The translations under genes and the position numbers were made by a program. Below the pieces are notes generated by a model. The model made no database searches, was not told where the DNA came from, and was given only the letters and a program-made list of their open reading frames with translations. From Candidatus Woesearchaeota archaeon (GTDB taxonomy: Archaea; Nanobdellota; Nanobdellia; Woesearchaeales; UBA11576): 64,000 bases of DNA. Where the stretch lies: assembly GCA_016929255.1 (NCBI GenBank), contig JAFGJH010000041.1, positions 4,313-68,312 on the forward strand, in the 5' to 3' direction. Shown here one piece after another: positions 7,524-25,190 of this stretch (position 1 is its first letter; each line of letters begins with the position of its first letter).

Positions 7524-8582
7524 TCAAAATACCATCTTGTACCTCAATACGGCAGCGATTCCGCCTAGTCCATCAAGCTTTCTGCCTCCATCGTGCTCAG
7601 AAGAGACTATGCAGATATCAGCGCCGCTGCGGTCAGCAGACCTCATGATATCATTTATCCTATTAAACTTTTCCTCCTGACGCATCTTCTGGATGATTCC
7701 ATCCGTGATCAGAAGAGTCCTGACTGCACCGGCATTCGCCGCATTCTCAGTCTCATCGACACCGTAAGCAGCAGCACCCCGCTTCGATATCTCTGAAAGC
7801 AGCTCTTCGACCAGGTTTATCTCAGATGCTATGCGATCCTGCTGGAGGACAGACTGCACCTCAGGCCTCTTCAGAACCTCATTGATAGCCCCCTTGTCGC
7901 AGGACGAGCAAGTGGCGAGCACAACCATCCTTTTCAGCTCCTGGTTCTTGAGGCTCTTCAGCAGATCCTCTTTCCAGAAAGCAGGGCTTGCAATAATCAC
8001 GTGCTTTATGCCGTGACGCTTCACATACTCCTGCAAAGAGCTGATTATCTCATCATAGAAATTTCCTGCAGACTGCCTGACATCCGCCTTTTTCGCCACC
8101 TCACCCTTGAGCTCAGCGACAACCTCAAAACCATATTTCTTCATCAAGGCTATGTATGCCTCCTCTCGGTCAAAGACGCAGATCATTGTGTCGGGCCGCC
8201 TTTCCTTCGCAGCCTCTTCCAGGCGCTGGCGCTGGTACTTCAGCCACTCTGGCTTGGTTATCGTGAGGGCCGTTCCCTCCTCGACATTGAAGGTGTGGTA
8301 GGAGCCCTTTGGGATGTCTTCCTTGCCCTCTGCGACCTTTCCGGATATGCGCAGTACATCAGAGTAACGGTGGAATTCCACCTTCTCAACATCAAGCTTC
8401 AGGAAAACGGGCTTCTTAATGATCTTCTGCGAGCGCTCATCCTCCCCGCCCATCTTGATCTTGCGGAAAGTCCTGCCCTCAACAGCATCACCTACATCAA
8501 TCATGTTGGACAGGTACCAGAGGTCGTCCAGGTTCTCAACGAGCAGTTTTGCCTCGTTCTTATGAAAGTGCAAAATTTTCAT
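7524..8582 (-). CDS. pelA: mRNA surveillance protein Pelota
   Basis: ORF 7524-8651. The conserved N-terminus MKILHFHKNEAKLLVENLDDLWYLSNMI starts at ATG 8582. It has the eRF1-like three-domain length (352 aa). Confidence 0.9.
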   Translation of the reverse strand: MKILHFHKNEAKLLVENLDDLWYLSNMIDVGDAVEGRTFRKIKMGGEDERSQKIIKKPVFLKLDVEKVEFHRYSDVLRISGKVAEGKEDIPKGSYHTFNVEEGTALTITKPEWLKYQRQRLEEAAKERRPDTMICVFDREEAYIALMKKYGFEVVAELKGEVAKKADVRQSAGNFYDEIISSLQEYVKRHGIKHVIIASPAFWKEDLLKSLKNQELKRMVVLATCSSCDKGAINEVLKRPEVQSVLQQDRIASEINLVEELLSEISKRGAAAYGVDETENAANAGAVRTLLITDGIIQKMRQEEKFNRINDIMRSADRSGADICIVSSEHDGGRKLDGLGGIAAVLRYKMVF

Positions 8583-8697
8583 CTTGTAAGCCCTAAAACC
8601 GGCTTTTTCGCCTGCGCAAATAGAAAAACATAAATATATAAAGATATTCATTTTGGGTTATAACCACCATAAGCGCTTATAAAAAGGTGAATACCTG

Positions 8698-9909
8698 ATG
8701 TATGGCCAAAACCCCCCCAAAAGAATAGTCATTTCTAGGAAGGCGCAGGATGCCGGTAACGCGGCAACCCTGATAGCTGTCATCGCATTGCTCATCATCT
8801 TCTACCTGCTATTCATCCCGCCAAGCTTTAGGGACCAGATACTGGAAGGCAACGAATCCACAACATCAACAACAGGCACAACAGGGACGGTCAACGAGAC
8901 GATCCTCAAGGCAAGTCCGGGAACGCTCTCACGCATATCATCAGAAGAGATAGAGCACAGCATACCATCCATAGTCCTCTATTCAAAGAAGGAGTCAAAA
9001 GTCATCAGCTCGGTAGCTTCATTATCAGTCAAATCATCAGTTTTCAGCTCAAAGACAGCGGCAATGCAGTTCACGATAGAAGACCTCGAGAACACAGACA
9101 ACCTGCTCCTGACCTTCATCGACAAAAAGTACAAGGGAGCGCTTATAGTGACGGTCAACGGCAACGAGGTATTCAACGGCGAGGTCACGCAGGAGAATCC
9201 GGCTCCGGTCACGCTGAACAAGCAGTTTCTGGTCAGAGGGAGCAACAAGATAGACTTCACAGCAGAGAGCGCCGGATGGAGATTCTGGAAAGTAAACAGG
9301 CATGACCTGCAGAACATCCAGGTGACAGGCGAGATAAAGGACATCTCGCGGCAGATGAGCAGGAACATATTCATAGTCTCAGCGACAGAGAAGTCCAATG
9401 TCAAGCGGGACATACTCAGGTTCACTCCGGACTGCATGACAGGCAAGACAGGCAAGCTAAATGTCATGATAAACCAGCACTCAGTATACTACTCAGTGCC
9501 CGACTGCGGCGGAAGGATAGCGATTGAGTTCACGCCAGACGTGCTCAGGGAAGGGGAGAACACAATAGTGTTCGACAGCGAGGAAGGAAGCTACCTAATA
9601 GACCTGATAAGGATAACGTCAGAGCTCAAGGAAGTGCTGCAGCCCGCGTACTACTTCGAGATCACGAAAGAGACAATGGAAGACGTGAGGGACGGAGACT
9701 ACGATGTCACGCTGAAGATAACATTCACAGAGGACAACGACCAGAAGGCAGGAGTCCTCAACATAAACGGAAGGGAGACAAGCATATTCCAGCGTGAGAG
9801 GACATACACCAAGAACATCAACGACTACATCATCGAAGGCAACAATGCAATCAAGATAGTGCCTGAGACCATGCTTGAGATAGTTTCCCTAGAAGTCATC
9901 AAAGAATAA
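8698..9909 (+). CDS. secreted/membrane-anchored protein with three internal beta-rich repeats, function unknown
   Basis: 403-aa ORF. Basic N-terminus then one hydrophobic helix (ATLIAVIALLIIFYLLF), a Thr-rich linker, and three similar segments (..VTVNGNEVFNG..GSNKIDF.. / ..VMINQHSVYY..GENTIVF.. / ..LNINGRETSI..GNNAIKI..). AAGGTGA Shine-Dalgarno-like element 7 nt upstream. Confidence 0.75.
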   Translation: MYGQNPPKRIVISRKAQDAGNAATLIAVIALLIIFYLLFIPPSFRDQILEGNESTTSTTGTTGTVNETILKASPGTLSRISSEEIEHSIPSIVLYSKKESKVISSVASLSVKSSVFSSKTAAMQFTIEDLENTDNLLLTFIDKKYKGALIVTVNGNEVFNGEVTQENPAPVTLNKQFLVRGSNKIDFTAESAGWRFWKVNRHDLQNIQVTGEIKDISRQMSRNIFIVSATEKSNVKRDILRFTPDCMTGKTGKLNVMINQHSVYYSVPDCGGRIAIEFTPDVLREGENTIVFDSEEGSYLIDLIRITSELKEVLQPAYYFEITKETMEDVRDGDYDVTLKITFTEDNDQKAGVLNINGRETSIFQRERTYTKNINDYIIEGNNAIKIVPETMLEIVSLEVIKE

Positions 9910-9961
9910 TCTTGAGAATTAATCATTTCATCGTTTTTATACGCGCGCATGAAAAAAAGAG

Positions 9962-12394
9962 GTGACAGTAGTTCTTATGCCTTTGACAAACACAGTACGA
10001 ATTCTGCAAGAGATGATTAAAGGCAAGAGAGCGATGTCGCCGATGCCTATGCCGAAACCAATGCCGAAACCTGCAGGTGGTGGTGGCGTTGGCGCAGGAA
10101 ATCCTGCAGGCGGCGGCGGAGGTGGCGCTGGCGGAGGTGCTGGTGGCAGCGGCAACCCTCTAGAGTCGCTCATGGGCGGCGGAGGCATGCCAGGGATGCC
10201 GGGCGGAAATCCTCTAGACCAGATTAAGGGCATGGCAAGCACAGGGTCAGGCGGGCTCATCAAACAGCATGAGGAAAAGATATCACAGCTGAAGCAGGAG
10301 ATAGCACAGCAGAAGGAGAATCTGAAGCAGGTCGATGCACAGATAGGCGGACCAGGGGGAGTCAAATCAAAGATTGACGCAGATAATACCTCGATAAGCG
10401 ATGCAAAAAAACAAGGTGCGGGAGTAGCACAGATACAGCAGATTGAGGCACATAAGGCACAGCTCGAGCAGCAGCTTCAGAAGCTGAATGAGCAGAAGGC
10501 AGCGATACAGGAAGTCATAAGGAAAAAAGAGGCAGAGATAGCTGTCGAGGAAGAAGCAATATCCAAGCTGAAAGGTGACCGCTGGACAGAACTTAAACTC
10601 AAAGCAGTCGGCTTCATCCCGGGCTACGGAACCGCGGCGGAGATAGCTGGCGAACAGGCCATGCAAATGAAGCATGGGGTCACAGAAGGAATGGCTGCGA
10701 AAAAAGAAGGAAAGATAGAAAGCGGCGCAGGCGAAGCTGAGAAAAAAGCAGCAGCTGCAGGCGAAGCCGCAAAAAGCGCAGGCGCATCAGCAGGACCAGC
10801 ACCAACCCCCACCCCCGCACCGTCAGGAGGAACCTCAGGCGGTGGCGGCGGAGGCGGACACATAGGAGGAGGCCTCCCTAATCTCGGAGCTCTCGGAGGA
10901 GGTGGCGGCGGAAGCGGCGGAATTGGCGGCGGAGAAAAGCCGCCAATAGTAACAGGACTGCTTGTAGGACTCAGCGTGCTCGGAGGAGGCATGGTGGTGA
11001 AATCATCAGGAAGCTTGGACATAGCGACGCTCCTTCCAGTGGTGATCCCAATAGCACTATTTATCACAGCACTGATATGCATCAGGCTCAGGTCAAAACA
11101 CTGGCTATTCCTTGTAGTTGGAATAATACTCCTAACAGGTTCGCTATACGGCGTAGCAACAAGGACAGCACCGCACGCTATTGCAGCATACCAGGCAGGA
11201 GCGATAGGTGAGTCAGGAGAACAGACACAAATCGCAGCGAAGAAAGGAGTTTCAGGAGTGATAGAGGATTTTTCAGTATCCTGGCAGAGACAGATGGCCA
11301 TCGCCAAAGGAGAGAATATAGACGGAGATGTAGACCAGCAAGTGAAAGAGGATGTAGGGCTCGAGATACTGCCGCCATACCTGCCGAACCCGACAAAGCT
11401 TAATCTCGATGAGGCAGGCACGCTCGAGATAGGGGCAAGGGTGAAAGGCTTCGATCCCAAGACACCAATAACCGCCACGACAGTGTGCCACATGCAGACA
11501 AGGGACGAGGCTGTCAGCTGGACAGGAAGCACAAGGACAGTCAAGCTCAACCCAGGCATCCAACAGAAGATCAGGCCGGTAACAGTCCAAGGCCACGCAT
11601 TCGACAGCGACATCATATGCTATCCAAGCATAACAAGATGCGGGCACTACGTGGTCACGATATCATCACAGGCAGACAACATAAGGACAGATGCGCAGAT
11701 GCAGAACTACATAATCGACAAGGAGATACTCAAGCAGAGGCTCAGGAGCTACGCAGAATCCAAAGACACGGAGTTGAGGTCAGAAAGCCAGGTCAACTCG
11801 GCGATAAACGAGATATACAAGGGGCAGGTCGGCAACTTCAAGTCAGTCTCGCAGAAAGGTGCGATAAAGGTGGTGATGGCAACGCAGCCTCTGGCACTGA
11901 TAGGCGTGGACCAGGAAACAGAACTCACGTTCAGGATGGGCATAGAGAACATGATGAACGGGTGGATAAGGACGCTCAACAGGGTGGAGGTAACCATACC
12001 CGGCTACTTCAGGCCATTGCCCGAGTACTGCACTAGCTGGCAGCTCGAAGGCAACAAGCTCATACTAAAACAGGAATACCTCAGGACAGTCAACCTTTAC
12101 GAAACAATAAGAGGAACACAGAAGATATTCCCCTCATGCCACCTCGTGCCGTCAGGAGATTACGCTCTGACAGAGCCCACAGAAGCCACGTTCCTTGCGC
12201 TCGTAGACTACAACTACATCGTCCAGTCAGAGTACAATGTAGAGATAAGGACAGCAGACGGCCAGATATGCAGAGAAGAAGCGAGCTCTGGCGGAAGCGG
12301 CGGAGGCGGTGCTGCCACCGGAGGATTACCGCATAACACAACAACAAATACCAGCAATAATCTAACAACATCTTTGAGCACGAACTCATCATAA
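9962..12394 (+). CDS. large membrane protein: Gly-rich/coiled-coil N-terminal part, TM segments, Cys-containing C-terminal ectodomain
   Basis: 810-aa ORF (GTG 9962; alternative ATGs at 9977 and 10013). It has poly-Gly tracts, a Q/K/E heptad region, hydrophobic helices (IVTGLLVGLSVLGGGMVV, LLPVVIPIALFITALICI, WLFLVVGIILLTGSLYGV) and a ~380-aa C-terminal domain ending in a G/N/T/S-rich tail. A TATA-like TTTTATAC lies ~25 nt upstream. Confidence 0.75.
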   Translation: MTVVLMPLTNTVRILQEMIKGKRAMSPMPMPKPMPKPAGGGGVGAGNPAGGGGGGAGGGAGGSGNPLESLMGGGGMPGMPGGNPLDQIKGMASTGSGGLIKQHEEKISQLKQEIAQQKENLKQVDAQIGGPGGVKSKIDADNTSISDAKKQGAGVAQIQQIEAHKAQLEQQLQKLNEQKAAIQEVIRKKEAEIAVEEEAISKLKGDRWTELKLKAVGFIPGYGTAAEIAGEQAMQMKHGVTEGMAAKKEGKIESGAGEAEKKAAAAGEAAKSAGASAGPAPTPTPAPSGGTSGGGGGGGHIGGGLPNLGALGGGGGGSGGIGGGEKPPIVTGLLVGLSVLGGGMVVKSSGSLDIATLLPVVIPIALFITALICIRLRSKHWLFLVVGIILLTGSLYGVATRTAPHAIAAYQAGAIGESGEQTQIAAKKGVSGVIEDFSVSWQRQMAIAKGENIDGDVDQQVKEDVGLEILPPYLPNPTKLNLDEAGTLEIGARVKGFDPKTPITATTVCHMQTRDEAVSWTGSTRTVKLNPGIQQKIRPVTVQGHAFDSDIICYPSITRCGHYVVTISSQADNIRTDAQMQNYIIDKEILKQRLRSYAESKDTELRSESQVNSAINEIYKGQVGNFKSVSQKGAIKVVMATQPLALIGVDQETELTFRMGIENMMNGWIRTLNRVEVTIPGYFRPLPEYCTSWQLEGNKLILKQEYLRTVNLYETIRGTQKIFPSCHLVPSGDYALTEPTEATFLALVDYNYIVQSEYNVEIRTADGQICREEASSGGSGGGGAATGGLPHNTTTNTSNNLTTSLSTNSS

Positions 12395-12411
12395 TCCGAA
12401 AAGGTGCAAAC

Positions 12412-13428
12412 ATGAACCGAAAACACACACCAACAACACAGTTTCTATCACGAATGCTGATTCTCTTAATCCTCCTAATGCTGTCCGGCTGCAGCGGTGC
12501 AGGCGGGTTCTTCAAGGGCAACACCAAAACAATAGAGACATACAACTTCAGGCAGGGAACTGACGCCCTCTCGATGCAGTTCATCGAGGGCATGCCCCCT
12601 AGCCAGGTATTCATCGGGACAGACTTCAGCACAGGGCTCAAAATCAAGAATATGGGAGCCTATGACATAGACGGCAACGCAGAGCTTTCCATAAGCGTCC
12701 CTGACGCTTCCGCATTCAGCTTCAAGCAGGGAAACAAGGAACAGTTCATCATGAAAGGCAAATCATTGTACATCAAAGAAGGAGAAGAGAACGTCATAAT
12801 ATTCCCGATGAAAGCGCTGTGCTTCCCGGGATATGCCGAACAGATAGTCAGGAACTACACAAGGAAGATAAAGGCCACAGCATGCTACTACTACGAGACC
12901 ACCGCCAATGCTGACCTCTGCATAGACACCAGGAAGTTCCTCAGGGCAGAGAAGGAGAAACCAGAATGCCAGATGCGAGACATGACTCTCTCAGGAGGAC
13001 AGGGAGGGCCTGTAGGAGTCTCGAGGATATCACCGACAGTGATACCCCAATCGACAGAAGAGGTCACAGTGCAGCTGGCAATATCAATAGACAAGCTAAA
13101 AGGAGCAGACCACAACATATTCCACCCGGACTCAGGATGCACTGACCCACAGCAGCTGAACAGGGTGCAGGTAAGCGTGGAGATGGGCGGAGAGCCGCTC
13201 CAGTGCAGGCCGTCAGAGATACAGCTCAAGGAAAGGCAGTCAGTAAGCATGATATGCGAGAAGAAAGTCAACCCTTCCCTCGGAGCGTTCCTGTCACCGG
13301 TCACAGTCAACATGAGATACTATGTCCAGCAGACACAGCTGAAGGACATAACAGTAGAGCCGCCTCCGCTGGAGTACGGCAATACAGTAAACTGCGCAGC
13401 CCTGAGCGGCGCTCAACCTGCCTCTTAG
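12412..13428 (+). CDS. predicted lipoprotein, paralog 1 of a three-member family
   Basis: 338-aa ORF with a signal peptide and lipobox (LLILLMLSGC). Shares GT[ED]xLxMxF, hxhxhxNxG beta-sandwich motifs, ACYYYETTANADLCID, GGPVGV and six aligned Cys with ORFs 13655 and 14638. Confidence 0.8.
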   Translation: MNRKHTPTTQFLSRMLILLILLMLSGCSGAGGFFKGNTKTIETYNFRQGTDALSMQFIEGMPPSQVFIGTDFSTGLKIKNMGAYDIDGNAELSISVPDASAFSFKQGNKEQFIMKGKSLYIKEGEENVIIFPMKALCFPGYAEQIVRNYTRKIKATACYYYETTANADLCIDTRKFLRAEKEKPECQMRDMTLSGGQGGPVGVSRISPTVIPQSTEEVTVQLAISIDKLKGADHNIFHPDSGCTDPQQLNRVQVSVEMGGEPLQCRPSEIQLKERQSVSMICEKKVNPSLGAFLSPVTVNMRYYVQQTQLKDITVEPPPLEYGNTVNCAALSGAQPAS

Positions 13429-13580
13429 AATCACCTGGAAGCAGCGGCATCAAGCAAACAAGGCTGAACAGCACCAGCTTAAAGACAGAACAGCAGAAGC
13501 AGGGTATACGTTAAATAATCAGGTATAAAGCCCGTATCACCGAAAAATATAAATACTCAAAAACCGCGATTTAGCACACA

Positions 13581-13600
13581 CAAAGCCCCTCTGGGCTTTG
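13581..13600 (+). other. perfect 8-bp stem / 4-nt loop hairpin between lipoprotein paralogs 1 and 2
   Basis: CAAAGCCC-CTCT-GGGCTTTG. It lies ~27 nt downstream of the TATA-like ATATAAAT (13547-13554) and 55 nt upstream of ATG 13655. Confidence 0.5.
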
Positions 13601-13654
13601 GTGTCCTAAAATTATTGGTTTTCAATAATTTTATGACAAAAGAGGCCTAAAAAG

Positions 13655-14596
13655 ATGGTAAACAAAAAAACAAGCATTACTTTCGGGTTGATTTTCGCAC
13701 TGCTGCTGATAACAGGCTGCAGCAGCTTCGGAGGAAGTAGGGACGGTCCGCCTGTGTCAGCAGAGTTCGTCGCCTCAGGCACAGAAGGCATAGTCATGAG
13801 CTTCATAGCAGACCAGCCTCCGCCCAAAGTATACACGCAGTCACCGCTGACATTCCTTGTAGAGATAAGGAACAGAGGGACATACACAGTCCCCAGCGCA
13901 GCATTCTACCTCACAGGGTTCGACCCAAACATCATAATTGGACTGCCGCCATCCTACATAATCACGCAGCCTCTGGAAGGCAAGAACCAGTTCAACCCTG
14001 ACGGAGGATACACGACAGCAGAGTTCTCAACATCAACAGTCACGCTGCCGACAAGCATGCCAAACTACAGGCCCACATTCATGCTCACGGCATGCTACCC
14101 ATACCACACAATCGCCACGCCTCTCATCTGCGTAGACCCCAACCCGCTCGACACGACATCAGACAAGGCCTGCAGGGTGCAGAAGGTCTATTCTACAGGA
14201 AGCCAGGGAGCCCCCGTATCTGTGCAGAGCATAGAGACAGAGGCAAGGCCGACAGGCATGTTCTTCAGGATACACATCGCAAACCTGGCAGGAGGCACAG
14301 AACAGGCAAGCGGAACAGTATTCGACCAGACAGCCATGCAGACCTGCCCGGGAGGGCTGCAGTACAAGGACCTTAACCAGATTGACTACATGGTATCAAT
14401 CGCAGGACAGCCGCTCGACTGCGAGCCCAAAGCAAAGATAAGGCTCGTCAACAACGTGGCGACAATATTCTGCAAGTACCTTAACCTGCCGCAGATACCC
14501 GCATACCAGACCCCCATAGAGGTGGAGCTCAGCTACGGATACAAAAGCTCGATATCCAAGATTGTAGAGATAGAGAACCTTAACTTCGCAAGATAA
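13655..14596 (+). CDS. predicted lipoprotein, paralog 2
   Basis: 313-aa ORF with lipobox LLLITGC. Family motifs: SGTEGIVMSF, LVEIRNRGTYTV, ACYPYHTIATPLICVD, GAPVSV. Confidence 0.8.
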   Translation: MVNKKTSITFGLIFALLLITGCSSFGGSRDGPPVSAEFVASGTEGIVMSFIADQPPPKVYTQSPLTFLVEIRNRGTYTVPSAAFYLTGFDPNIIIGLPPSYIITQPLEGKNQFNPDGGYTTAEFSTSTVTLPTSMPNYRPTFMLTACYPYHTIATPLICVDPNPLDTTSDKACRVQKVYSTGSQGAPVSVQSIETEARPTGMFFRIHIANLAGGTEQASGTVFDQTAMQTCPGGLQYKDLNQIDYMVSIAGQPLDCEPKAKIRLVNNVATIFCKYLNLPQIPAYQTPIEVELSYGYKSSISKIVEIENLNFAR

Positions 14597-14637
14597 ATCT
14601 TCATGAAACAACAGAGGTCAGACTAGGAGGTCAAAAA

Positions 14638-15606
14638 ATGAGGAAAGCAATCCTGATAACATTCGTCGCGTTCCTGCTGTTATTCGCAGCAGGATGCAAC
14701 AAGGAAGAGCAGCAGGGCCCAGTGGGCTCAAAGTTCGTAGGAGGCACAGAAGGCCTGTCCATAAGCTTTGCGCCGGGATCCATACCTGACAAGATACTCG
14801 ACAAAGACCAGCCGTTCGGCATAAGCGTGGTACTCACGAACAAAGGAGACCACACCATAGAGAACGGAGCAGATGCGACAGTCAAGATAACAGGGATAGA
14901 CCCGGCAGACTTCGGCGTTGGCGCAGGAGACCTGGTCCAGGACAGCCCAGGAACAATCAGGGGGGCACAGAAAGACGTCCAGGGAGCGGTCATACAGGGA
15001 GAGACAGTAAGCCTTGACTTCCCTGCAAGCGGAGCAAGCTTTGTCCACCAGAAAGAGATAGCAGGAGCAGTGACATACAATGTCAGGGCAGACGTGTGCT
15101 ACAAATACGGCACGGTAGCCAACACAAAGCTCTGCGTCCTTGAAGACATACTCGGCACCCACGGAGCATCAGGCAAGCTCTGCCAGATAAACGAGGACAA
15201 GGTCGTCGACAACTCAGGAGCCCCTGTCCAGATAGTATCATTCAGGGAATCGGTATCCTCGGCGAACAAAGTGGCATTTGTCTTCAAGATAAAGCATGTA
15301 GGCACAGGGACCGTCCATGAGATGGACAGCGAGTGCGCAAAGGAGTTCCAGCAGAAGGACAAAGTGCATGTAATGGTTGACACTGGCATATCAGACGGCC
15401 TGACGTGCTCAGGACTCCAGGACGGAGCAGCTTCAGGATCAGTTTATGAGGGCAATGCGCAGCTCCTCAACGGAGAGAGGGAGATAAGGTGCACACAGAA
15501 CATAAACAGCCCAACAGACCTCGAGAAACTGACCATAATAGAGCTCACATACGACTATGACCAGAACATAGAGAAAAGGCTCGAAGTCCAGCACGTGGGA
15601 GGATAA
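14638..15606 (+). CDS. predicted lipoprotein, paralog 3
   Basis: 322-aa ORF with lipobox LLFAAGC and a strong TAGGAGGT Shine-Dalgarno. Family motifs: GGTEGLSISF, VVLTNKGDHTI, VCYKYGTVANTKLCVLED, GAPVQI. Confidence 0.8.
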   Translation: MRKAILITFVAFLLLFAAGCNKEEQQGPVGSKFVGGTEGLSISFAPGSIPDKILDKDQPFGISVVLTNKGDHTIENGADATVKITGIDPADFGVGAGDLVQDSPGTIRGAQKDVQGAVIQGETVSLDFPASGASFVHQKEIAGAVTYNVRADVCYKYGTVANTKLCVLEDILGTHGASGKLCQINEDKVVDNSGAPVQIVSFRESVSSANKVAFVFKIKHVGTGTVHEMDSECAKEFQQKDKVHVMVDTGISDGLTCSGLQDGAASGSVYEGNAQLLNGEREIRCTQNINSPTDLEKLTIIELTYDYDQNIEKRLEVQHVGG

Positions 15607-15663: not shown

Positions 15664-15955
15664 TTAAAGCGGTGGCTGCAGCCACGCTGCTACCCTGCTG
15701 TCGGTTGCCATGTGAATTCTGTTTTGCTGGTTGCTGCGCAAACCCTGAAGAACAGACAAAAGCGCAACCATTCTGATTCTTTGGTCTGAGGACACGCAAA
15801 GAGCGGTGGCTGCAGCCACGCTGCTATCGGTCATGTTGGTTGCTATCTTTCTATCCTTTAGCCTGTTGCTGCGCAAACCCTGAAGAACAGACAAAAGTGC
15901 AACCATTCTGATTCTTTGGTCTGAGGACACGCAAAGAGCGGTGGCTGCAGCCACG
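15664..15955. repeat. tandem 134-135 bp repeat array (2 units) bounded by three copies of a palindromic hairpin motif
   Basis: GCGGTGGCTGCAGCCACG occurs at 15669, 15803 and 15938. The segment 15731-15820 matches 15866-15955 at 89 of 90 positions. The array lies between convergent gene ends. Confidence 0.9.
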
Positions 15956-16001: not shown

Positions 16002-17243
16002 TCACTTCCCGACGATGTTGAGGCTGGAAAAAGCATTCTCCACATCAGCCTTCGAGTAACCAGAACTCAAGAGGGAATGCCTTATCTTGTCAATGTCATC
16101 GCCATGGTCCATCGCCAGCTCAATCATAGGCAGTATCTCATCTATCTTAGACGGAAGGCTGCTGCCTCCATCATCAGTGCCGGAATCCATTCCAGTTTCT
16201 CCAGAAGGGGCATCATCATCAGACACACCCATCCTGCCTGCGTAACCTGAACTCTCAGGTTCATCAAAAGACCTGAGATCGTCAGGGCTTATGCTGACCG
16301 TCTCAGACGGCTCGAACCGGGTCATCATCAGCTCCTTCATGCGCTCCCCGAACTCGCTCATCAAGGCGTTCTCCTTGCGCGCCTTCTCCTCAATCACCTT
16401 CTGCTGCTTATCAAGCTTCACCTTCATCGAAGCAAGAGCAGCATTGAAGAGCGAGACCTTCTTCGCATGGTTCTTCATTATTATGAGCCTCTTCTCCTCC
16501 TCTTCCTTCCTCAACTGCTCAAGAGCGTCGGCATACTCAGCCTCCCTGGAGCCTATTACGCGCCCCTTTTCCGCAAGAGCGGCGTCGTTAGACTTAAGGC
16601 GCTCCTTCATCCTCATCATCTCATAAAGAAGCTTCTGGTTCTGTTCATCAGTGGAGAAGACGCGTTTCTCGACAGCGCCGACCTTGTTGTTGAGGGCAAA
16701 GACCTGCTTCCTGTAAGCGTCGATCTGCTGCTCAAGGTCACTGTTCCTGCTGTCCATCCCCTTCAACAGCGATGTCTTCTCGGCTAGCTTGTCCTTCAGC
16801 ACCCGGACCATACCATCCTTCTCAGCCACTTGCTTCCTGAGCTCTGTGTTGAGCCTGTCCAAATCCTGCAGCTGCCTCCTGCTGTCTAGGATGTCCTTTG
16901 AAAGCGACTCTATCCTGGCAGACTGGTCATCAATCTTCTGCTTCATCGAGTTGACGACATCCTCGCGCCTGGAAAGGTCAAGCTCAACAGGCTTAATGTC
17001 ATCAATCATCTCAGAAATCAGCCGGCGCTTATCCTCAAGCTCTCCCTTGAGCCTCTTGAGCTCAGCGCGCACAGCAGGATCAGAACCTGAACCTCCCATC
17101 TCCTGCCTCAGGCTCTCGAACTCCTCCGCGAACCTGGAGATGACCTCCTGATTCTTCCTCAGACGGTCGGCCAGCTCCTCATTGGAACGCATGATCTCCT
17201 GGCTCTTCTTCCCAATATCCTCAAGGATGCTATTTTCCACCAT
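16002..17243 (-). CDS. cytoplasmic coiled-coil protein, function unknown
   Basis: 413-aa ORF, almost entirely heptad-like E/K/R/L-rich, with an acidic Ser/Asp linker and a small C-terminal helical domain (IDEILPMIELAMDHGDDIDKIRHSLLSSGYSKADVENAF). Confidence 0.7.
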   Translation of the reverse strand: MVENSILEDIGKKSQEIMRSNEELADRLRKNQEVISRFAEEFESLRQEMGGSGSDPAVRAELKRLKGELEDKRRLISEMIDDIKPVELDLSRREDVVNSMKQKIDDQSARIESLSKDILDSRRQLQDLDRLNTELRKQVAEKDGMVRVLKDKLAEKTSLLKGMDSRNSDLEQQIDAYRKQVFALNNKVGAVEKRVFSTDEQNQKLLYEMMRMKERLKSNDAALAEKGRVIGSREAEYADALEQLRKEEEEKRLIIMKNHAKKVSLFNAALASMKVKLDKQQKVIEEKARKENALMSEFGERMKELMMTRFEPSETVSISPDDLRSFDEPESSGYAGRMGVSDDDAPSGETGMDSGTDDGGSSLPSKIDEILPMIELAMDHGDDIDKIRHSLLSSGYSKADVENAFSSLNIVGK

Positions 17244-17314
17244 CTTTTTTTTTCAGCTCCCGCCATGGCAGGCAACCAACGACATGCGAATGACCATCGA
17301 AAGTGCACCAATAC

Positions 17315-18277
17315 TCATTTCTCAGAGCCGACCAACGCAACGTGCGCAAGGAAAGCCTCAAGCTGGACGAACTCGTCGCTGCCCTCAGTCATCCTGAACT
17401 CGGCCTCGCCGCATTTCTCGACCAGAGACATCTTCTTCCTGCCGTCGAGCTCAAGGTTGTATATCTCCTTCTGGACCTGCTTTATGACATCAAGGCCCGA
17501 AAGCCCGTAATTGAGCATGACATCGAGCAGCCTTTCCCGCGAATCGATGAACCCGCCCTTCAACGCAATCTCAAGGACATCCTTGACTTCCTTCGGCCTC
17601 GCGACCGACGCCAGAGAGTAGACTATATCATCTGTTATATTCTTGCTGATCGCGGCAGCGCTCTGGAGGATGTTCTCGACCCTCCTACAGTCCCCCTCTG
17701 ATATGTTGAACAGCGCCTCCTCAGCCTTGTCGTCCAGCCTCAGCCCCTCAATCTTGGCAATCTTCTTGACCAGCCTGAACACATCAACTTTCGGAAGCGG
17801 CTTGAAGCGGAATATCGCGCATCTCGACTGGATAGGATCTATTATCTTGCTGCTGTAATTGGCCGCCAGGATGAACCTTGTGGTCTGGGTGTAGTTCTCC
17901 ATGGTCCTTCTCAGGGCCTGCTGCGCCTCTCTCGTGAGAGCATCGCACTCGTCAAGATAGATTATCTTGAAAGGCACGTCCCCTATAGCCCGCGTCCTGG
18001 CAAAATCCTTGACCTTGTTCCTTATCACATCTATACCTCGCTCATCAGAAGCGTTAAGCTCAAGGAAGTTGCTGTGCCAAGACTCGCCGAAAAGCTGCCT
18101 TGCGACGACCAGCGCAAGAGAGGTCTTCCCGACTCCCGCGGGTCCTGAAAACAGAAGATGAGGCATGTTCTTCTCCTTCACAAAAGCCTCCACTCTCTTC
18201 ACAACAGCTTCCTGCCCAAGGACCTCGCTGAAGTCCTTAGGCCTGAATTTCTCTGTCCAGATGGCGTGCTCTGTCAT
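17315..18277 (-). CDS. rfcS: replication factor C small subunit
   Basis: WTEKFRPKDF, Walker A GPAGVGKTS, DECD, the SRC motif QSRCAIFRF. The conserved N-terminus starts at ATG 18277, inside ORF 17315-18346. Confidence 0.92.
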   Translation of the reverse strand: MTEHAIWTEKFRPKDFSEVLGQEAVVKRVEAFVKEKNMPHLLFSGPAGVGKTSLALVVARQLFGESWHSNFLELNASDERGIDVIRNKVKDFARTRAIGDVPFKIIYLDECDALTREAQQALRRTMENYTQTTRFILAANYSSKIIDPIQSRCAIFRFKPLPKVDVFRLVKKIAKIEGLRLDDKAEEALFNISEGDCRRVENILQSAAAISKNITDDIVYSLASVARPKEVKDVLEIALKGGFIDSRERLLDVMLNYGLSGLDVIKQVQKEIYNLELDGRKKMSLVEKCGEAEFRMTEGSDEFVQLEAFLAHVALVGSEK

Positions 18278-18387
18278 GCCTCTGAATAAAGTCCGAGAAA
18301 ATATAAATGTTTCCCTTTTAAAACCACGACAAAAAATCAAAAACAAAGAGAAAACAGCAAAAAATAAACAGAAAAATCAGAAGAGCA

Positions 18388-25013: not shown

Positions 25014-25190
25014 TCATTCTTTTTTCTGCAGTTCCTTGTTCTTCTTGACAAACTCCTTCATGTGGTTCTCGATGCTCTTCGAGCGTATTATGCCAAGATC
25101 ATCGCATAGCTGGGAGAACTCAGAGTAGACAGACTCTTCTATAAGGAAATTATACCTGCCCTTCTTTCTCTTCTTCCTGCTGTTGTTCAT
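25014..25190 (-). CDS. 58-aa ribbon-helix-helix (CopG/Arc-like) DNA-binding protein, absent from the supplied ORF track
   Basis: My own translation: MNNSRKKRKKGRYNFLIEESVYSEFSQLCDDLGIIRSKSIENHMKEFVKKNKELQKKE. It reads as a basic arm, a beta-strand (YNFLIEESVY) and two helices. Its ATG (25188-25190) overlaps the TGA (25187-25189) of the upstream 625-aa gene in an ATGA arrangement. Confidence 0.7.
   Translation of the reverse strand: MNNSRKKRKKGRYNFLIEESVYSEFSQLCDDLGIIRSKSIENHMKEFVKKNKELQKKE

What the first reader, a model, noticed from the sequence alone, without database searches (positions are those of the whole stretch)
8698..15606. Five-gene same-strand cluster encoding only secreted or membrane proteins of unknown function (candidate cell-surface apparatus)
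There are five consecutive plus-strand genes, with gaps of 52, 17, 226 and 41 nt:
- A 403-aa N-terminally anchored protein with three internal beta-rich repeats.
- An 810-aa protein that links a cytoplasmic Gly-rich/coiled-coil region, through three TM helices, to a Cys-containing ectodomain.
- Three paralogous lipobox proteins.

I recognise no enzyme, ATPase or known pilus/archaellum component.

In a probably host-dependent small archaeon, a dedicated trans-membrane plus lipoprotein module is a plausible envelope, S-layer-like or host-contact structure. That interpretation is inference only.
Basis: inference. Interest (0 to 1): 0.72.

Follow-up and report, generated by a model that had tools for sequence, protein, structure and literature searches.

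The report
Conserved Woesearchaeal surface-complex operon
Five neighbouring genes of a tiny DPANN archaeon encode only membrane-tethered surface proteins; about a hundred related genomes keep them in the same order, and some add enzymes that cut bacterial cell walls, so this is a concrete candidate for the structure these uncultured archaea use to touch other cells.

Summary
In detail: all five plus-strand ORFs, their gaps, anchors and paralogy are as described. The window comes from a Candidatus Woesearchaeota MAG. No Pfam, NCBIfam or PDB sequence match exists for any of the five proteins.

New findings:
- The order pelota(-) | g1 g2 g3 g4 g5 (+) | RFC-small(-) recurs in nearly all of the 101 fetched loci, with g1 identity down to 33%.
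- The lipoprotein family has 3,422 clusters at 50% identity.
- g1 carries three homologous jelly-roll, carbohydrate-binding-like domains. They follow a conserved [KR][GA]Q-plus-hydrophobic N-terminus that resembles a prepilin signal.
- g3-g5 are two-domain Ig-like lipoproteins. The g2 ectodomain is a fourth paralog of them (hhalign P 5.6e-6).
- g2 evolves fastest. In 5 of 48 orthologs from mutually distant lineages its outer C-terminus carries a peptidoglycan module: SLT three times, a degenerate LytM once, and a weak M15 match once.
- N-glycosylation sequons are scarce, which argues against an S-layer.

Best reading: a lineage-wide, five-subunit membrane-anchored surface platform that binds glycans or mediates adhesion. 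In some lineages it is armed against bacterial walls. The existence of a complex and its function are inferred.

The parts
8698..9909 (+). g1: 403-aa N-terminally anchored protein with three tandem jelly-roll (galactose-binding-domain-like) modules.
   Evidence: ORF. TM helix at residues 22-40. AF2 model pLDDT 83.4, with a helix at 19-49, a disordered Ser/Thr-rich linker at 51-64 and three beta domains. Foldseek hits at probability 1.0: GH35 beta-galactosidase C-terminal domains, BcsB and PNGase F. The three repeats are homologous. 70 homologs found, all from Woesearchaeota/Nanoarchaeota and all named hypothetical.
8737..8817 (+). g1 residues 14-40: RKAQ motif followed by a hydrophobic helix. 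Possible class III (prepilin-like) signal peptide or signal anchor.
   Evidence: [KR][GA]Q lies just upstream of the hydrophobic core in 41 of 47 distinct orthologs, and [KR][GA] in 46 of 47. Q17, A22 and A23 are conserved in at least 90% of sequences across alignment A2. There is no Pfam Class_IIIsignal hit.
9962..10942 (+). g2 residues 1-327: cytoplasmic Gly-rich / coiled-coil / Ala-Pro-Gly-rich region. It is clade-specific.
   Evidence: Only weak coiled-coil-type family matches over residues 93-214. This region is absent or replaced by extra TM helices in distant orthologs.
10943..11161 (+). g2 residues 328-400: three TM helices, N-in/C-out.
   Evidence: Hydropathy. The positively charged TM2-TM3 loop is read directly from the sequence. 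The number of TM helices varies among orthologs.
11162..12277 (+). g2 residues 401-772: conserved Cys-containing ectodomain core. It is a two-domain paralog of g3-g5 with an inserted helical linker.
   Evidence: C509, C553 and G667 are invariant across 48 orthologs. hhalign against the lipoprotein family: probability 85.6%, P 5.6e-6, 257 columns; reversed control P 0.15. This is the fastest-evolving part of the cluster.
12278..12394 (+). g2 residues 773-810: Gly/Ser/Thr/Asn-rich C-terminal tail. In other lineages SLT, LytM, M15 or Cys-rich modules are attached at this position.
   Evidence: Sequence. Ortholog fusions all lie C-terminal to the core.
12412..13428 (+). g3: lipobox lipoprotein, position 1 of three. 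It is the most divergent of the three paralogs.
   Evidence: At position 1 the best blastp match is split between g3 (28) and g4 (27).
13429..13654 (+). 226-nt g3-g4 spacer containing an A/T-rich TATA-like stretch. Possible internal promoter.
   Evidence: Sequence. In distant relatives this gap is only 2-97 nt, so a single operon is the ancestral state. Promoter function is untested.
13655..14596 (+). g4: lipobox lipoprotein with two Ig-like beta-sandwich domains and six conserved Cys besides the lipobox Cys.
   Evidence: AF2 pLDDT 83.5, pTM 0.76. Foldseek finds only generic tandem Ig-like matches (integrin alphaV, TG2, WxLIP, RbmA) at TM-score about 0.2. The conserved Cys and the Q-G-x-P core of the QGAP motif (Q184 and A186 in at least 90% of sequences) are seen. 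Position 2 is g4-type in 55 of 55 loci.
14638..15606 (+). g5: lipobox lipoprotein. It is the most conserved subunit.
   Evidence: Identity is 69-93% (L017-L019: 55-67%; distant L001-L005: 23-41%) in relatives where g2 is 34-71% and RFC is 79-83%. Position 3 is g5-type in 51 of 55 loci.
7524..8651 (-). Pelota gene. Conserved divergent upstream neighbour, listed as a synteny marker and not as part of the complex.
   Evidence: Pfam Pelota_N/eRF1_2/eRF1_3 in the orthologous loci. Present upstream of g1 in the loci summarised.
16002..18346 (-). Downstream neighbours: a 413-aa coiled-coil protein (16002-17243) and RFC small subunit (17315-18346). Both are synteny markers. The coiled-coil gene is found in the clade whose g2 has the cytoplasmic coiled-coil region.
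   Evidence: Coiled-coil/SMC-like weak hits. RFC domains. Distribution.

Best explanation
The five genes are an ancient operon that is near-universal in Woesearchaeota-type DPANN archaea. It encodes the subunits of one membrane-anchored, non-enzymatic cell-surface complex.

**Proposed subunits**
- g1 is held in the membrane by a prepilin-like N-terminal helix. A flexible Ser/Thr-rich linker presents three carbohydrate-binding-type jelly-roll modules.
- g2 is the integral-membrane subunit. Its ectodomain and the three lipid-anchored proteins g3, g4 and g5 are four paralogs of one two-domain Ig-like module.
- The four paralogs probably assemble, with g1, into a hetero-oligomeric platform close to the membrane.

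**Proposed function**
The platform most likely binds glycan or cell-wall material of other cells. The slowly evolving g1, g4 and g5 would form the base. The fast-evolving g2 would be the exposed, exchangeable arm. In several lineages that arm has picked up peptidoglycan-cleaving (SLT) or peptidoglycan-binding (degenerate LytM) modules and Cys-rich modules. In those lineages the complex would contact bacterial walls.

In the window organism g2 has no hydrolase. Instead it has a long cytoplasmic Gly-rich/coiled-coil region that could couple the platform to cytoplasmic partners.

**Shown**: gene content, anchors, paralogy, folds, synteny, and the fusions in orthologs.

**Inferred**: physical complex formation, glycan binding, processing of the g1 signal, lipidation, and the cell-contact role.
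For: 1. **Synteny.** pelota | g1 g2 g3 g4 g5 | RFC occurs in 32 complete loci, and most of the others are compatible fragments cut by contig ends, among 101 loci. g1 identity falls to 33%. Paralog order is fixed: position 2 is g4-type in 55 of 55 loci and position 3 is g5-type in 51 of 55.
2. **Family size.** The lipoprotein profile hits 3,422 clusters at 50% identity, 1,709 of them at E<=1e-30.
3. **Export and anchoring.** All five products are exported or anchored. The lipobox is present in 201 of 221 family members and [KR][GA]Q in 41 of 47 g1 orthologs. AliA, the archaeal lipoprotein lipidation enzyme, is reported in DPANN (PMC12462473). Archaellins, which need a class III signal peptidase, are among the top expressed Woesearchaeota genes (PMC11606122).
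4. **Folds.** g1 has three jelly-roll, galactose-binding-like domains. g4 has two Ig-like domains. No enzyme family is hit.
5. **Fourth paralog.** The g2 ectodomain is a paralog of g3-g5: hhalign probability 85.6%, P 5.6e-6, over both domains; reversed control P 0.15.
6. **Rate hierarchy.** Conservation runs g5 > g1 ~ g4 > g3 >> g2. g5 is about as conserved as RFC and TyrRS.
7. **Fusions at the g2 C-terminus.** These occur in lineages that share only 34-43% identity in g1. SLT is above the gathering score in L021, L034 and L075, with the E-S motif kept in all three; L021 also keeps LMQ and YNxG, L075 LMQ, and L034 an IFQ variant plus AYNG. Peptidase_M23 scores 60 bits in AR3. M15_4 is a weak match in L020. 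All lie distal to the conserved core.
Against: - No experiment or multimer model shows that the five proteins interact.
- Only about 10% (5 of 48) of sampled g2 orthologs carry a peptidoglycan module. The window's g2 has none.
- The AR3 M23 domain lacks the HxxxD zinc ligands and is closest to the inactive regulator DipM, so it is not an enzyme.
- g1, g4 and g5 evolve as slowly as housekeeping genes. That is unusual for host-specific adhesins and fits a housekeeping envelope role equally well.
- The Foldseek matches are generic folds with low TM-scores of about 0.2, so glycan binding is not demonstrated.
- The prepilin-like motif gets no Pfam support, and none of the window ORFs scanned against Pfam belongs to a type IV filament machinery family; smaller ORFs were not scanned.
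- Four loci (L044, L069, L083, L094) have only one or two lipoproteins beside RFC, without g1 or g2 nearby.
Confidence: 0.5

Rival explanations
1. The five proteins are the S-layer, or the membrane anchor/spacer that holds an S-layer, of Woesearchaeota. On this reading they have a purely structural envelope role with no part in cell contact.
For: - Near-universal presence, single copy and core-genome position.
- g1, g4 and g5 are as conserved as housekeeping genes.
- Ig-like beta-sandwich domains are the usual building blocks of archaeal S-layer proteins (own knowledge).
- All five products are anchored outside the membrane.
Against: - No S-layer Pfam or NCBIfam family is hit.
- No solved S-layer protein is among the 50 best Foldseek PDB matches listed.
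- Five separately anchored subunits of only 300-400 aa are unlike the one- or two-protein lattices known.
- Sequon density is 0-0.6 per 100 aa, against 4.07 per 100 aa in the 1893-aa sequon-rich surface protein at 27033-32714.
- S-layer protein genes are separately annotated and highly expressed in Woesearchaeota (PMC11606122).
- This reading does not explain the hydrolase fusions on g2.
Confidence: 0.2
2. The cluster is a nutrient-capture complex, resembling a bindosome or a Sus system. g1 and the lipoproteins would bind polysaccharide or peptidoglycan fragments near the membrane, for uptake by transporters encoded elsewhere. The SLT and LytM add-ons would serve to harvest bacterial necromass.
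For: - g1 has CBM-like jelly rolls.
- g1 has a prepilin-like N-terminus plus a Ser/Thr linker. [quoted passage not shown]
- Scavenging of peptidoglycan-derived compounds has been proposed for Pacearchaeota (PMC11537232).
- The SLT domains keep the catalytic E-S motif.
Against: - No transporter, ABC component or glycoside hydrolase lies in or beside the cluster in any locus.
- No solute-binding-protein fold or family is matched.
- The position is fixed between pelota and RFC rather than next to catabolic genes.
- A strictly fixed five-subunit stoichiometric layout is unlike substrate-specific binding proteins, which vary in number.
Confidence: 0.15
3. The cluster is an envelope-remodelling or cell-division module. 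g2 would couple a cytoplasmic coiled-coil region to extracellular regulators, in the manner of bacterial FtsEX-EnvC or DipM, which control wall hydrolases.
For: - The AR3 g2 carries a degenerate LytM domain whose closest solved relative is DipM.
- The window-clade g2 has a cytoplasmic coiled coil.
- A conserved coiled-coil gene lies downstream in the same clade.
- The neighbouring genes are housekeeping or replication genes.
Against: - No peptidoglycan or pseudomurein synthesis genes are known to me for these archaea (own knowledge), and the literature read here treats the transglycosylases as anti-bacterial.
- The coiled-coil region and the downstream coiled-coil gene are clade-specific, not ancestral.
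- No FtsZ, SepF or Cdv gene is linked.
- The LytM fusion is seen in one lineage only.
Confidence: 0.07
4. The genes are functionally unrelated secreted proteins that merely lie next to each other.
For: No direct interaction data exist. The 226-nt g3-g4 gap in the window could separate two transcription units.
Against: - Order and orientation are conserved across about 100 loci, down to 33% identity in g1.
- Four of the five proteins share one ancestral ectodomain.
- Intergenic gaps in distant relatives are 2-97 nt, or the genes overlap.
Confidence: 0.02

Closest known systems
[quoted passage not shown]
   Same: - Same organisms.
- Membrane-anchored, extracellular, with an SLT domain.
- Proposed to bind or degrade bacterial walls.
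- Three g2 orthologs (L021, L034, L075) are such proteins: SLT scores above the gathering threshold and the E-S motif is kept.
   Different: - The window g2 and about 90% of its orthologs have no SLT domain.
- The papers read here do not mention that such proteins sit in a fixed five-gene operon, nor that their core ectodomain is a paralog of three lipoproteins.
- Whether the g2-SLT forms belong to fam00969 itself could not be tested.
Class III signal peptide (prepilin-like) surface proteins: the Sulfolobales bindosome sugar-binding proteins and the wider set in bioRxiv 10.64898/2026.04.22.720090
   Same: - A short positively charged leader, a [KR][GA] site, a hydrophobic helix and then a globular binding domain.
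- These proteins are encoded away from the type IV filament machinery.
- g1 shows this layout in 41-46 of 47 orthologs.
   Different: - g1 is not a solute-binding-protein fold; it is three jelly rolls.
- No Pfam Class_IIIsignal match.
- Polar residues follow the Q.
- Cleavage is untested.
- No ABC transporter is nearby.
BcsB, the periplasmic subunit of bacterial cellulose synthase
   Same: - Membrane-anchored.
- Built of galactose-binding-like jelly-roll (carbohydrate-binding) domains that contact a glycan at the membrane surface.
- Foldseek probability 1.0 to several BcsB structures.
   Different: - TM-scores are only about 0.2.
- There is no sequence similarity.
- BcsB is anchored at its C-terminus, has flavodoxin-like domains and works with a BcsA synthase.
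- No glycosyltransferase is present here.
Csc / WxL 'cell-surface complex' gene clusters of lactic acid bacteria and enterococci (own knowledge; WxLIP structures 9i25, 9i1y)
   Same: - Conserved clusters that encode only secreted or anchored non-enzymatic proteins.
- These are thought to assemble into a surface complex for binding polysaccharide or host material.
- WxLIP is among the Ig-like Foldseek matches of g4.
   Different: - Different domain of life and different anchoring chemistry (LPXTG/WxL against lipobox and TM helix).
- No sequence homology.
- The fold match is generic (TM-score 0.22-0.27).
Archaeal S-layer proteins
   Same: - Exported and membrane-tethered.
- Made of beta-sandwich domains.
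- Universal within a lineage.
   Different: - No family or fold match to S-layer proteins.
- Five small, separately anchored subunits.
- Very few N-glycosylation sequons.
Degenerate LytM factors (DipM, EnvC, NlpD)
   Same: The C-terminal domain of the AR3 g2 ortholog is an M23/LytM domain whose closest solved relative is DipM. It lacks the HxxxD zinc-binding motif.
   Different: - Seen in one lineage only and absent from the window.
- The bacterial factors regulate the cell's own wall hydrolases. Here the likely target would be foreign peptidoglycan.

Membership tests
Prokaryotic/archaeal lipoproteins (g3, g4, g5) | Signal peptide ending in a lipobox [LVI][ASTVI][GAS]C. | tested here: met
   LSGC27, ITGC22 and AAGC20, each after a hydrophobic stretch. 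The Cys is invariant in alignment A1. A lipobox-like motif is present in 201 of 221 family members.
Prokaryotic/archaeal lipoproteins (g3, g4, g5) | Thioether-linked lipid on the Cys, and a lipidation enzyme (AliA) in the genome. | not testable with these tools
   Only 64 kb of the genome is available. AliA is reported as present in DPANN (PMC12462473).
Class III signal peptide / type IV pilin-like proteins (g1) | A short charged leader, a [KR][GA] cleavage site, then a hydrophobic helix. | tested here: inconclusive
   [KR][GA]Q in 41 of 47 and [KR][GA] in 46 of 47 distinct orthologs. In the window the site is RKA|QDAGNAATLIAV..., with polar residues after the Q.
Class III signal peptide / type IV pilin-like proteins (g1) | Match to the curated model (Pfam Class_IIIsignal). 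| tested here: not met
   No such hit at E<=10 for eight N-termini, nor at E<=1 for full-length g1.
Class III signal peptide / type IV pilin-like proteins (g1) | An associated ATPase, platform protein and prepilin peptidase. | tested here: not met
   None in the cluster or in the flanks of any locus. None among the window ORFs scanned. The rest of the genome was not available.
Galactose-binding-domain-like / CBM jelly-roll modules (g1) | Jelly-roll beta-sandwich fold. | tested here: met
   AF2 pLDDT 83. Foldseek probability 1.0 to GH35 C-terminal domains, BcsB and PNGase F.
Galactose-binding-domain-like / CBM jelly-roll modules (g1) | Sequence membership of a curated CBM or GBD family, and demonstrated sugar binding. 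| tested here: not met
   No Pfam, NCBIfam or PDB sequence hit. Sugar binding is not testable here.
Archaeal S-layer proteins | Match to an S-layer family or a solved S-layer fold. | tested here: not met
   No such Pfam or NCBIfam hit. No S-layer chain is among the 50 best Foldseek PDB matches listed for g4 or g1.
Archaeal S-layer proteins | Heavy N-glycosylation potential. | tested here: not met
   0-0.62 sequons per 100 aa in g1-g5, against 4.07 in the 1893-aa neighbour.
Archaeal S-layer proteins | Forms a 2-D lattice and is highly abundant. | not testable with these tools
   Needs cryo-ET or proteomics. The codon-adaptation proxy was confounded by strand bias.
Peptidoglycan hydrolases (SLT / GH23, Peptidase_M23, M15) - window g2 | Presence of the catalytic domain. 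| tested here: not met
   No hit in the window g2. Present only in orthologs: L021, L034 and L075 (SLT), AR3 (M23, degenerate) and L020 (M15_4, below the cut-off).
BcsB (cellulose synthase subunit B) | BcsB sequence family plus a partner BcsA glycosyltransferase. | tested here: not met
   No Pfam BcsB hit. No glycosyltransferase in any locus.

The most novel reading that the evidence does not exclude
The operon encodes a previously unrecognised, lineage-defining 'contact organelle' of Woesearchaeota/Pacearchaeota-type DPANN archaea. It would be a five-subunit trans-membrane platform with these parts:
- one prepilin-like triple-lectin subunit;
- four paralogous Ig-like subunits, one of them integral to the membrane;
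- a g2 arm that is modular, swapping lytic transglycosylase, LytM, M15 or Cys-rich heads according to the partner.

The platform would dock the archaeon onto bacterial cell walls. The cytoplasmic coiled-coil extension of g2 would link the contact site to the cell interior. If so, bacteria rather than archaea would be the usual partners of the most widespread DPANN lineages, and the molecular handle for that interaction would be identified.
Probability: 0.25. Interest if true: 0.85.

Novelty: new variant of a known kind. Interest (0 to 1): 0.62.

Why it matters
Woesearchaeota and Pacearchaeota are among the most widespread uncultured archaea. How they attach to partners, and whether those partners are bacteria, is an open question.

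The literature read here knows only that many lineage-specific families are 'hypothetical' and that some genomes carry large murein transglycosylases (PMC8204110, PMC9723730).

This analysis ties those observations to one concrete, near-universal five-gene operon:
- It defines the subunit architecture: four paralogous Ig-like ectodomains plus a triple jelly-roll protein.
- It identifies g2 as the variable arm onto which peptidoglycan modules are grafted.

That gives testable targets for antibodies, metaproteomics, cryo-ET, glycan and peptidoglycan binding assays, and AlphaFold-Multimer. It also gives a marker gene set for surveying these lineages.

If the role turns out to be plain envelope scaffolding, it would still be the first defined envelope complex for this group.

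Tried and rejected
- **Family and sequence searches.** Pfam and NCBIfam scans of all five proteins gave nothing beyond coiled-coil noise. PDB sequence searches with single proteins and with profiles gave no meaningful hits. The TM-region match of the g2 profile to a teichoic-acid flippase (21.6 bits) is treated as hydrophobic bias.
- **g2 versus lipoproteins, first attempt.** hhalign with small alignments was only suggestive (P 0.003-0.007). It became convincing only with 55 and 187 sequences.
- **g1 versus the lipoprotein family.** No relationship was found.
- **Class III signal Pfam model.** No hit.
- **Codon adaptation as an expression proxy.** Rejected. All + strand genes score 0.60-0.76 and all - strand genes 0.27-0.55 (all but two of them 0.40-0.49), so the index reflects strand bias and not expression.
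- **Sigma-70 promoter and intrinsic terminator scan.** Counts were at the shuffle expectation, and the scan is not suited to archaea.
- **tRNA and Rfam scans of the window.** Empty.
- **The search for related loci with diverse alignments.** Failed twice for lack of a conserved stretch. Narrower alignments worked.
- **Replication initiator near the cumulative GC-skew minimum (about 46 kb).** None was found.
- **Not possible within the caps.** A structure model of the g2 ectodomain, a multimer model, and a view of the weak tail of the 3,422-cluster family to fix its taxonomic limits.

Full report
**Observation**

- g1: 8698-9909, 403 aa
- g2: 9962-12394, 810 aa, GTG start
- g3: 12412-13428, 338 aa
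- g4: 13655-14596, 313 aa
- g5: 14638-15606, 322 aa

The gaps are 52, 17, 226 and 41 nt.

A hydropathy scan finds one N-terminal TM helix in g1 (residues 22-40). It finds three in g2 (328-346, 356-374, 382-400) and a hydrophobic stretch ending in a lipobox-type Cys in each of g3 (LSGC), g4 (ITGC) and g5 (AAGC). The TM2-TM3 loop of g2 (RLRSKH) is basic. This places the 330-residue Gly-rich/coiled-coil N-terminus in the cytoplasm and the Cys-containing C-terminal 410 residues outside.

g3, g4 and g5 are paralogs, with blastp E-values of 1e-21 to 5e-10 at about 25% identity. The three repeats in g1 are homologous to each other: profile-profile P-values are 1.3e-12, 1.2e-4 and 7e-5, against 0.07-0.5 for reversed controls.

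Pfam, NCBIfam and PDB sequence searches give no family for any of the five proteins.

g4 and g1 are 100% identical to hypothetical proteins JW898_03775 and JW898_03760 of a Candidatus Woesearchaeota archaeon. The 'small DPANN archaeon' guess is therefore right.

**Conservation**

I fetched 101 loci:
- five through the gene index;
- 15 from GTDB species genomes;
- 80 from JGI metagenomes.

I annotated them with HMMs of g1, the g2 ectodomain and the lipoprotein family, plus the flanking housekeeping proteins.

The commonest layout is pelota(-), g1, g2, lipoprotein x3 (+), RFC small subunit(-). It occurs in 32 complete copies. Most other loci are fragments of the same order cut by contig ends. 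A PRC-barrel gene and TyrRS usually follow.

The layout holds down to 33-36% identity in g1, for example in archaeon GW2011_AR3 and in contigs of 0.28-1.84 Mb.

The paralog order is fixed: position 2 is g4-type in 55 of 55 loci and position 3 is g5-type in 51 of 55. The triplication therefore predates the radiation of the sampled lineages.

Exceptions are few:
- four loci have only one or two lipoproteins beside RFC and no g1 or g2 nearby (L044, L069, L083, L094);
- one locus has four lipoproteins (L096).

An exhaustive profile search finds 3,422 clusters at 50% identity for the lipoprotein family, 1,709 of them at E<=1e-30. Every name recovered is 'hypothetical protein' from Woesearchaeota, Nanoarchaeota or Nanoarchaeia.

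**Structures**

The AlphaFold2 model of g4 has pLDDT 83.5 and pTM 0.76. It shows a signal helix, a disordered linker and two beta-sandwich domains. Foldseek against the PDB returns only generic tandem Ig-like matches (integrin alphaV thigh/calf, transglutaminase C-terminal barrels, WxLIP, RbmA, complement MG domains) at TM-scores of about 0.2. No solved S-layer protein is among the 50 best matches listed.

The g1 model has pLDDT 83.4. It shows an N-terminal helix (19-49), a disordered Ser/Thr-rich linker (51-64) and three beta domains. Foldseek matches, at probability 1.0, the galactose-binding-like jelly rolls of GH35 beta-galactosidases, the carbohydrate-binding domains of cellulose synthase subunit BcsB, and PNGase F. 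The TM-scores are again low because the multi-domain arrangements differ.

These results establish fold classes. They do not establish function.

**The g2 ectodomain is a fourth paralog**

With small alignments the similarity between the g2 ectodomain and the lipoproteins was only suggestive (P 0.003-0.007). With 55 g2 ectodomains and 187 mature lipoproteins taken from the loci, hhalign gives:
- probability 85.6%;
- P 5.6e-6;
- 257 aligned columns spanning both domains;
- the lipoprotein xxNxG and YxY motifs in register.

The reversed control gives P 0.15.

The cluster therefore encodes four copies of one two-domain module, one anchored by TM helices and three by lipid, plus the unrelated triple jelly-roll protein g1. 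g1 shows no relationship to the lipoproteins.

**The g1 N-terminus**

Among 47 distinct orthologs, 41 have [KR][GA]Q and 46 have [KR][GA] immediately before the hydrophobic helix. Often this follows a very short leader, as in MKRGQ..., MDKRGQ... and MSKRRAQ....

This is the layout of archaeal class III (prepilin-like) signal peptides. Such signals also occur on non-pilin surface binding proteins encoded away from the filament machinery (bioRxiv 10.64898/2026.04.22.720090).

Against this reading:
- the Pfam model is not matched;
- the residues after Q are polar;
- none of the window ORFs scanned against Pfam belongs to a filament machinery family; smaller ORFs were not scanned.

I treat this as an open lead and not as family membership.

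**Rates and add-ons**

Relative to the window, g5 is as conserved as RFC or TyrRS. In L007, for example, g5 is 83% identical, RFC 79%, g1 74%, g4 76%, g3 65% and g2 44%.

The N-terminal half of g2 is not conserved at all. It is Gly-rich/coiled-coil in the window's clade and consists of extra TM helices elsewhere.

Scanning 48 g2 orthologs against Pfam gave:
- SLT lytic transglycosylase domains above the gathering score in three: L021 at 35.8 bits, L034 at 26.8 and L075 at 25.5;
- a Peptidase_M23 domain at 60 bits in AR3;
- a sub-threshold Peptidase_M15_4 match in L020.

All of these lie C-terminal to the conserved ectodomain core, at the membrane-distal end. The five host lineages share only 34-43% identity in g1, so the fusions are independent events.

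The SLT domains all keep the catalytic E-S motif; L021 also keeps LMQ and YNxG, L075 LMQ, and L034 an IFQ variant plus AYNG. The AR3 M23 domain is closest to the inactive regulator DipM. In that alignment it has REGVT where, from memory of the lysostaphin sequence, the HxxxD zinc ligands lie. It is therefore probably a peptidoglycan-binding module and not a cleaving one.

Other orthologs carry Cys-rich C-terminal modules with no family. The window g2 ends in a 38-residue Gly/Ser/Thr/Asn-rich tail and has no such domain.

**Literature**

- Castelle et al. 2021 (PMC8204110) describe a module of 51 mostly unknown families specific to Woesearchaeota and Pacearchaeota. [quoted passage not shown]
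- Vigneron et al. 2022 (PMC9723730) and the 2025 PLoS Biology paper (PMC12352652) make similar points.
- The passages I read do not describe this five-gene operon, the paralogy, or the fact that SLT-bearing proteins can be variants of a universal membrane subunit.
- AliA, the archaeal lipoprotein lipidation enzyme, is reported in DPANN (PMC12462473).
- Archaellins, which need a class III signal peptidase, are among the top expressed Woesearchaeota genes. S-layer protein genes are annotated separately in the same study (PMC11606122).

**Interpretation**

The best-supported reading is a lineage-wide, five-subunit, non-enzymatic, membrane-anchored surface complex. It would consist of a conserved base (g1, g4, g5, and g3) and a variable, exchangeable arm (g2).

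The CBM-like modules of g1, together with the repeated and independent grafting of peptidoglycan modules onto g2, point to binding of glycan or cell-wall material of other cells. In some lineages that material is clearly bacterial peptidoglycan.

I put about 0.5 on this overall model. Within it:
- that the five proteins form a dedicated surface module is well supported;
- that the module mediates cell contact or wall binding in the window organism is inference.

**Rivals**

- **S-layer or S-layer anchor (0.2).** Disfavoured by the lack of any S-layer match and by five small, separately anchored subunits. Sequon density is also only 0-0.6 per 100 aa, against 4.07 per 100 aa in the neighbouring 1893-aa beta-helix protein, whose N-terminal stalk is a run of NxT sequons.
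- **Bindosome- or Sus-like nutrient capture (0.15).** No transporter or catabolic gene is ever linked to the cluster.
- **DipM/EnvC-like envelope remodelling or division module (0.07).** The coiled-coil features are clade-specific and the LytM fusion is seen in a single lineage.
- **Chance adjacency (0.02).** Essentially excluded.

**Novelty and score**

The components are common folds, and the broad kind of system is known: operon-encoded surface complexes of anchored binding proteins. However, every membership test against a named family fails, and the operon itself appears undescribed.

I rate it a new variant of a known kind, with interest 0.62.

The most novel reading still allowed is a modular DPANN-bacteria contact organelle. 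I give it probability 0.25 and interest 0.85 if true.

**Limits**

- The weak tail of the family could not be inspected, so the taxonomic limits are not fixed.
- The genome outside the 64-kb window was not available.
- Complex formation, lipidation, signal cleavage and ligand binding are all untested.

Noticed in passing
window 15668-15955 (between the g5 stop and the coiled-coil gene): A 135-nt tandem repeat with 2.1 copies at 88% match. Each copy starts with the palindrome-containing 18-mer GCGGTGGCTGCAGCCACG. The 18-mer occurs three times in the window against 0 expected. It is absent from all 101 related loci, including relatives about 90% identical in g1, g4 and g5. There is no tRNA or Rfam match. 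The mechanical 96-aa ORF at 15664-15954(-) is just this repeat.
   Followed up: partly
window 27033-32714 (-) and 25187-27064 (-): A 1893-aa protein with an N-terminal anchor and a stalk made of consecutive NxT sequons. It has 4.07 sequons per 100 aa, 36 Cys, net charge -156, and NosD/right-handed beta-helix domains. It is a much better candidate for a heavily N-glycosylated outer-surface or S-layer-type protein than g1-g5. Next to it lies a 625-aa InhA-like MAM-domain protein with a C-terminal TM helix and a Lys/Arg-rich tail.
   Followed up: partly
window 16002-17243 (-): A 413-aa all-coiled-coil protein with SMC/crescentin-like weak hits. It is conserved between g5 and RFC in the clade whose g2 carries the cytoplasmic Gly-rich/coiled-coil extension. 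AR3 has an unrelated-looking 514-aa coiled-coil protein in the same position. A possible cytoplasmic partner of g2; untested.
   Followed up: partly
whole window: Codon usage differs by strand. All + strand genes score 0.60-0.76 on a ribosomal-protein-based adaptation index, and all - strand genes score 0.27-0.55 (all but two of them 0.40-0.49). Cumulative GC skew has its minimum near 44-46 kb. No Orc1/Cdc6-like gene was found among the ORFs scanned there.
   Followed up: partly
L007, L008, L012, L014 (GTDB species genomes): Several MAGs titled 'uncultured Methanosarcinales archaeon' carry this Woesearchaeota-type locus with 66-83% identity in g1 and g5 and the same flanks. The record titles look like taxonomic mislabels.
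   Followed up: no
L044, L069, L083, L094; L096: Variant layouts. Four lineages keep only one or two lipoproteins (g4/g5-type) beside RFC, with fibrillarin/Nop5-like genes (recognised by eye only) upstream in three of them (L044, L083, L094) instead of g1-g3. One lineage (L096) has four lipoproteins in a row.
   Followed up: partly
L002 8683-9903; L014, L015, L016 and L021 g2 C-termini: Cys-rich C-terminal extensions of about 60-100 aa, with many CxxC/CC motifs and no Pfam family. They occur on the AR3 g3 ortholog and on several g2 orthologs. They may be small disulfide-rich binding modules.
   Followed up: no
window 10624-11616 (-) and 9937-10365 (-): Long antisense ORFs of 330 and 142 aa inside g2. 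They are Pro-rich mirror images of the Gly-rich coding strand and are very probably not genes.
   Followed up: no
L021 (contig_49020, 1.84 Mb): The cluster lies on a single 1.84-Mb contig, which is large for this group. There g1 is 559 aa, g2 is 1112 aa with an SLT domain, and a 926-aa CBM9-containing protein lies between the PRC-barrel gene and TyrRS.
   Followed up: no
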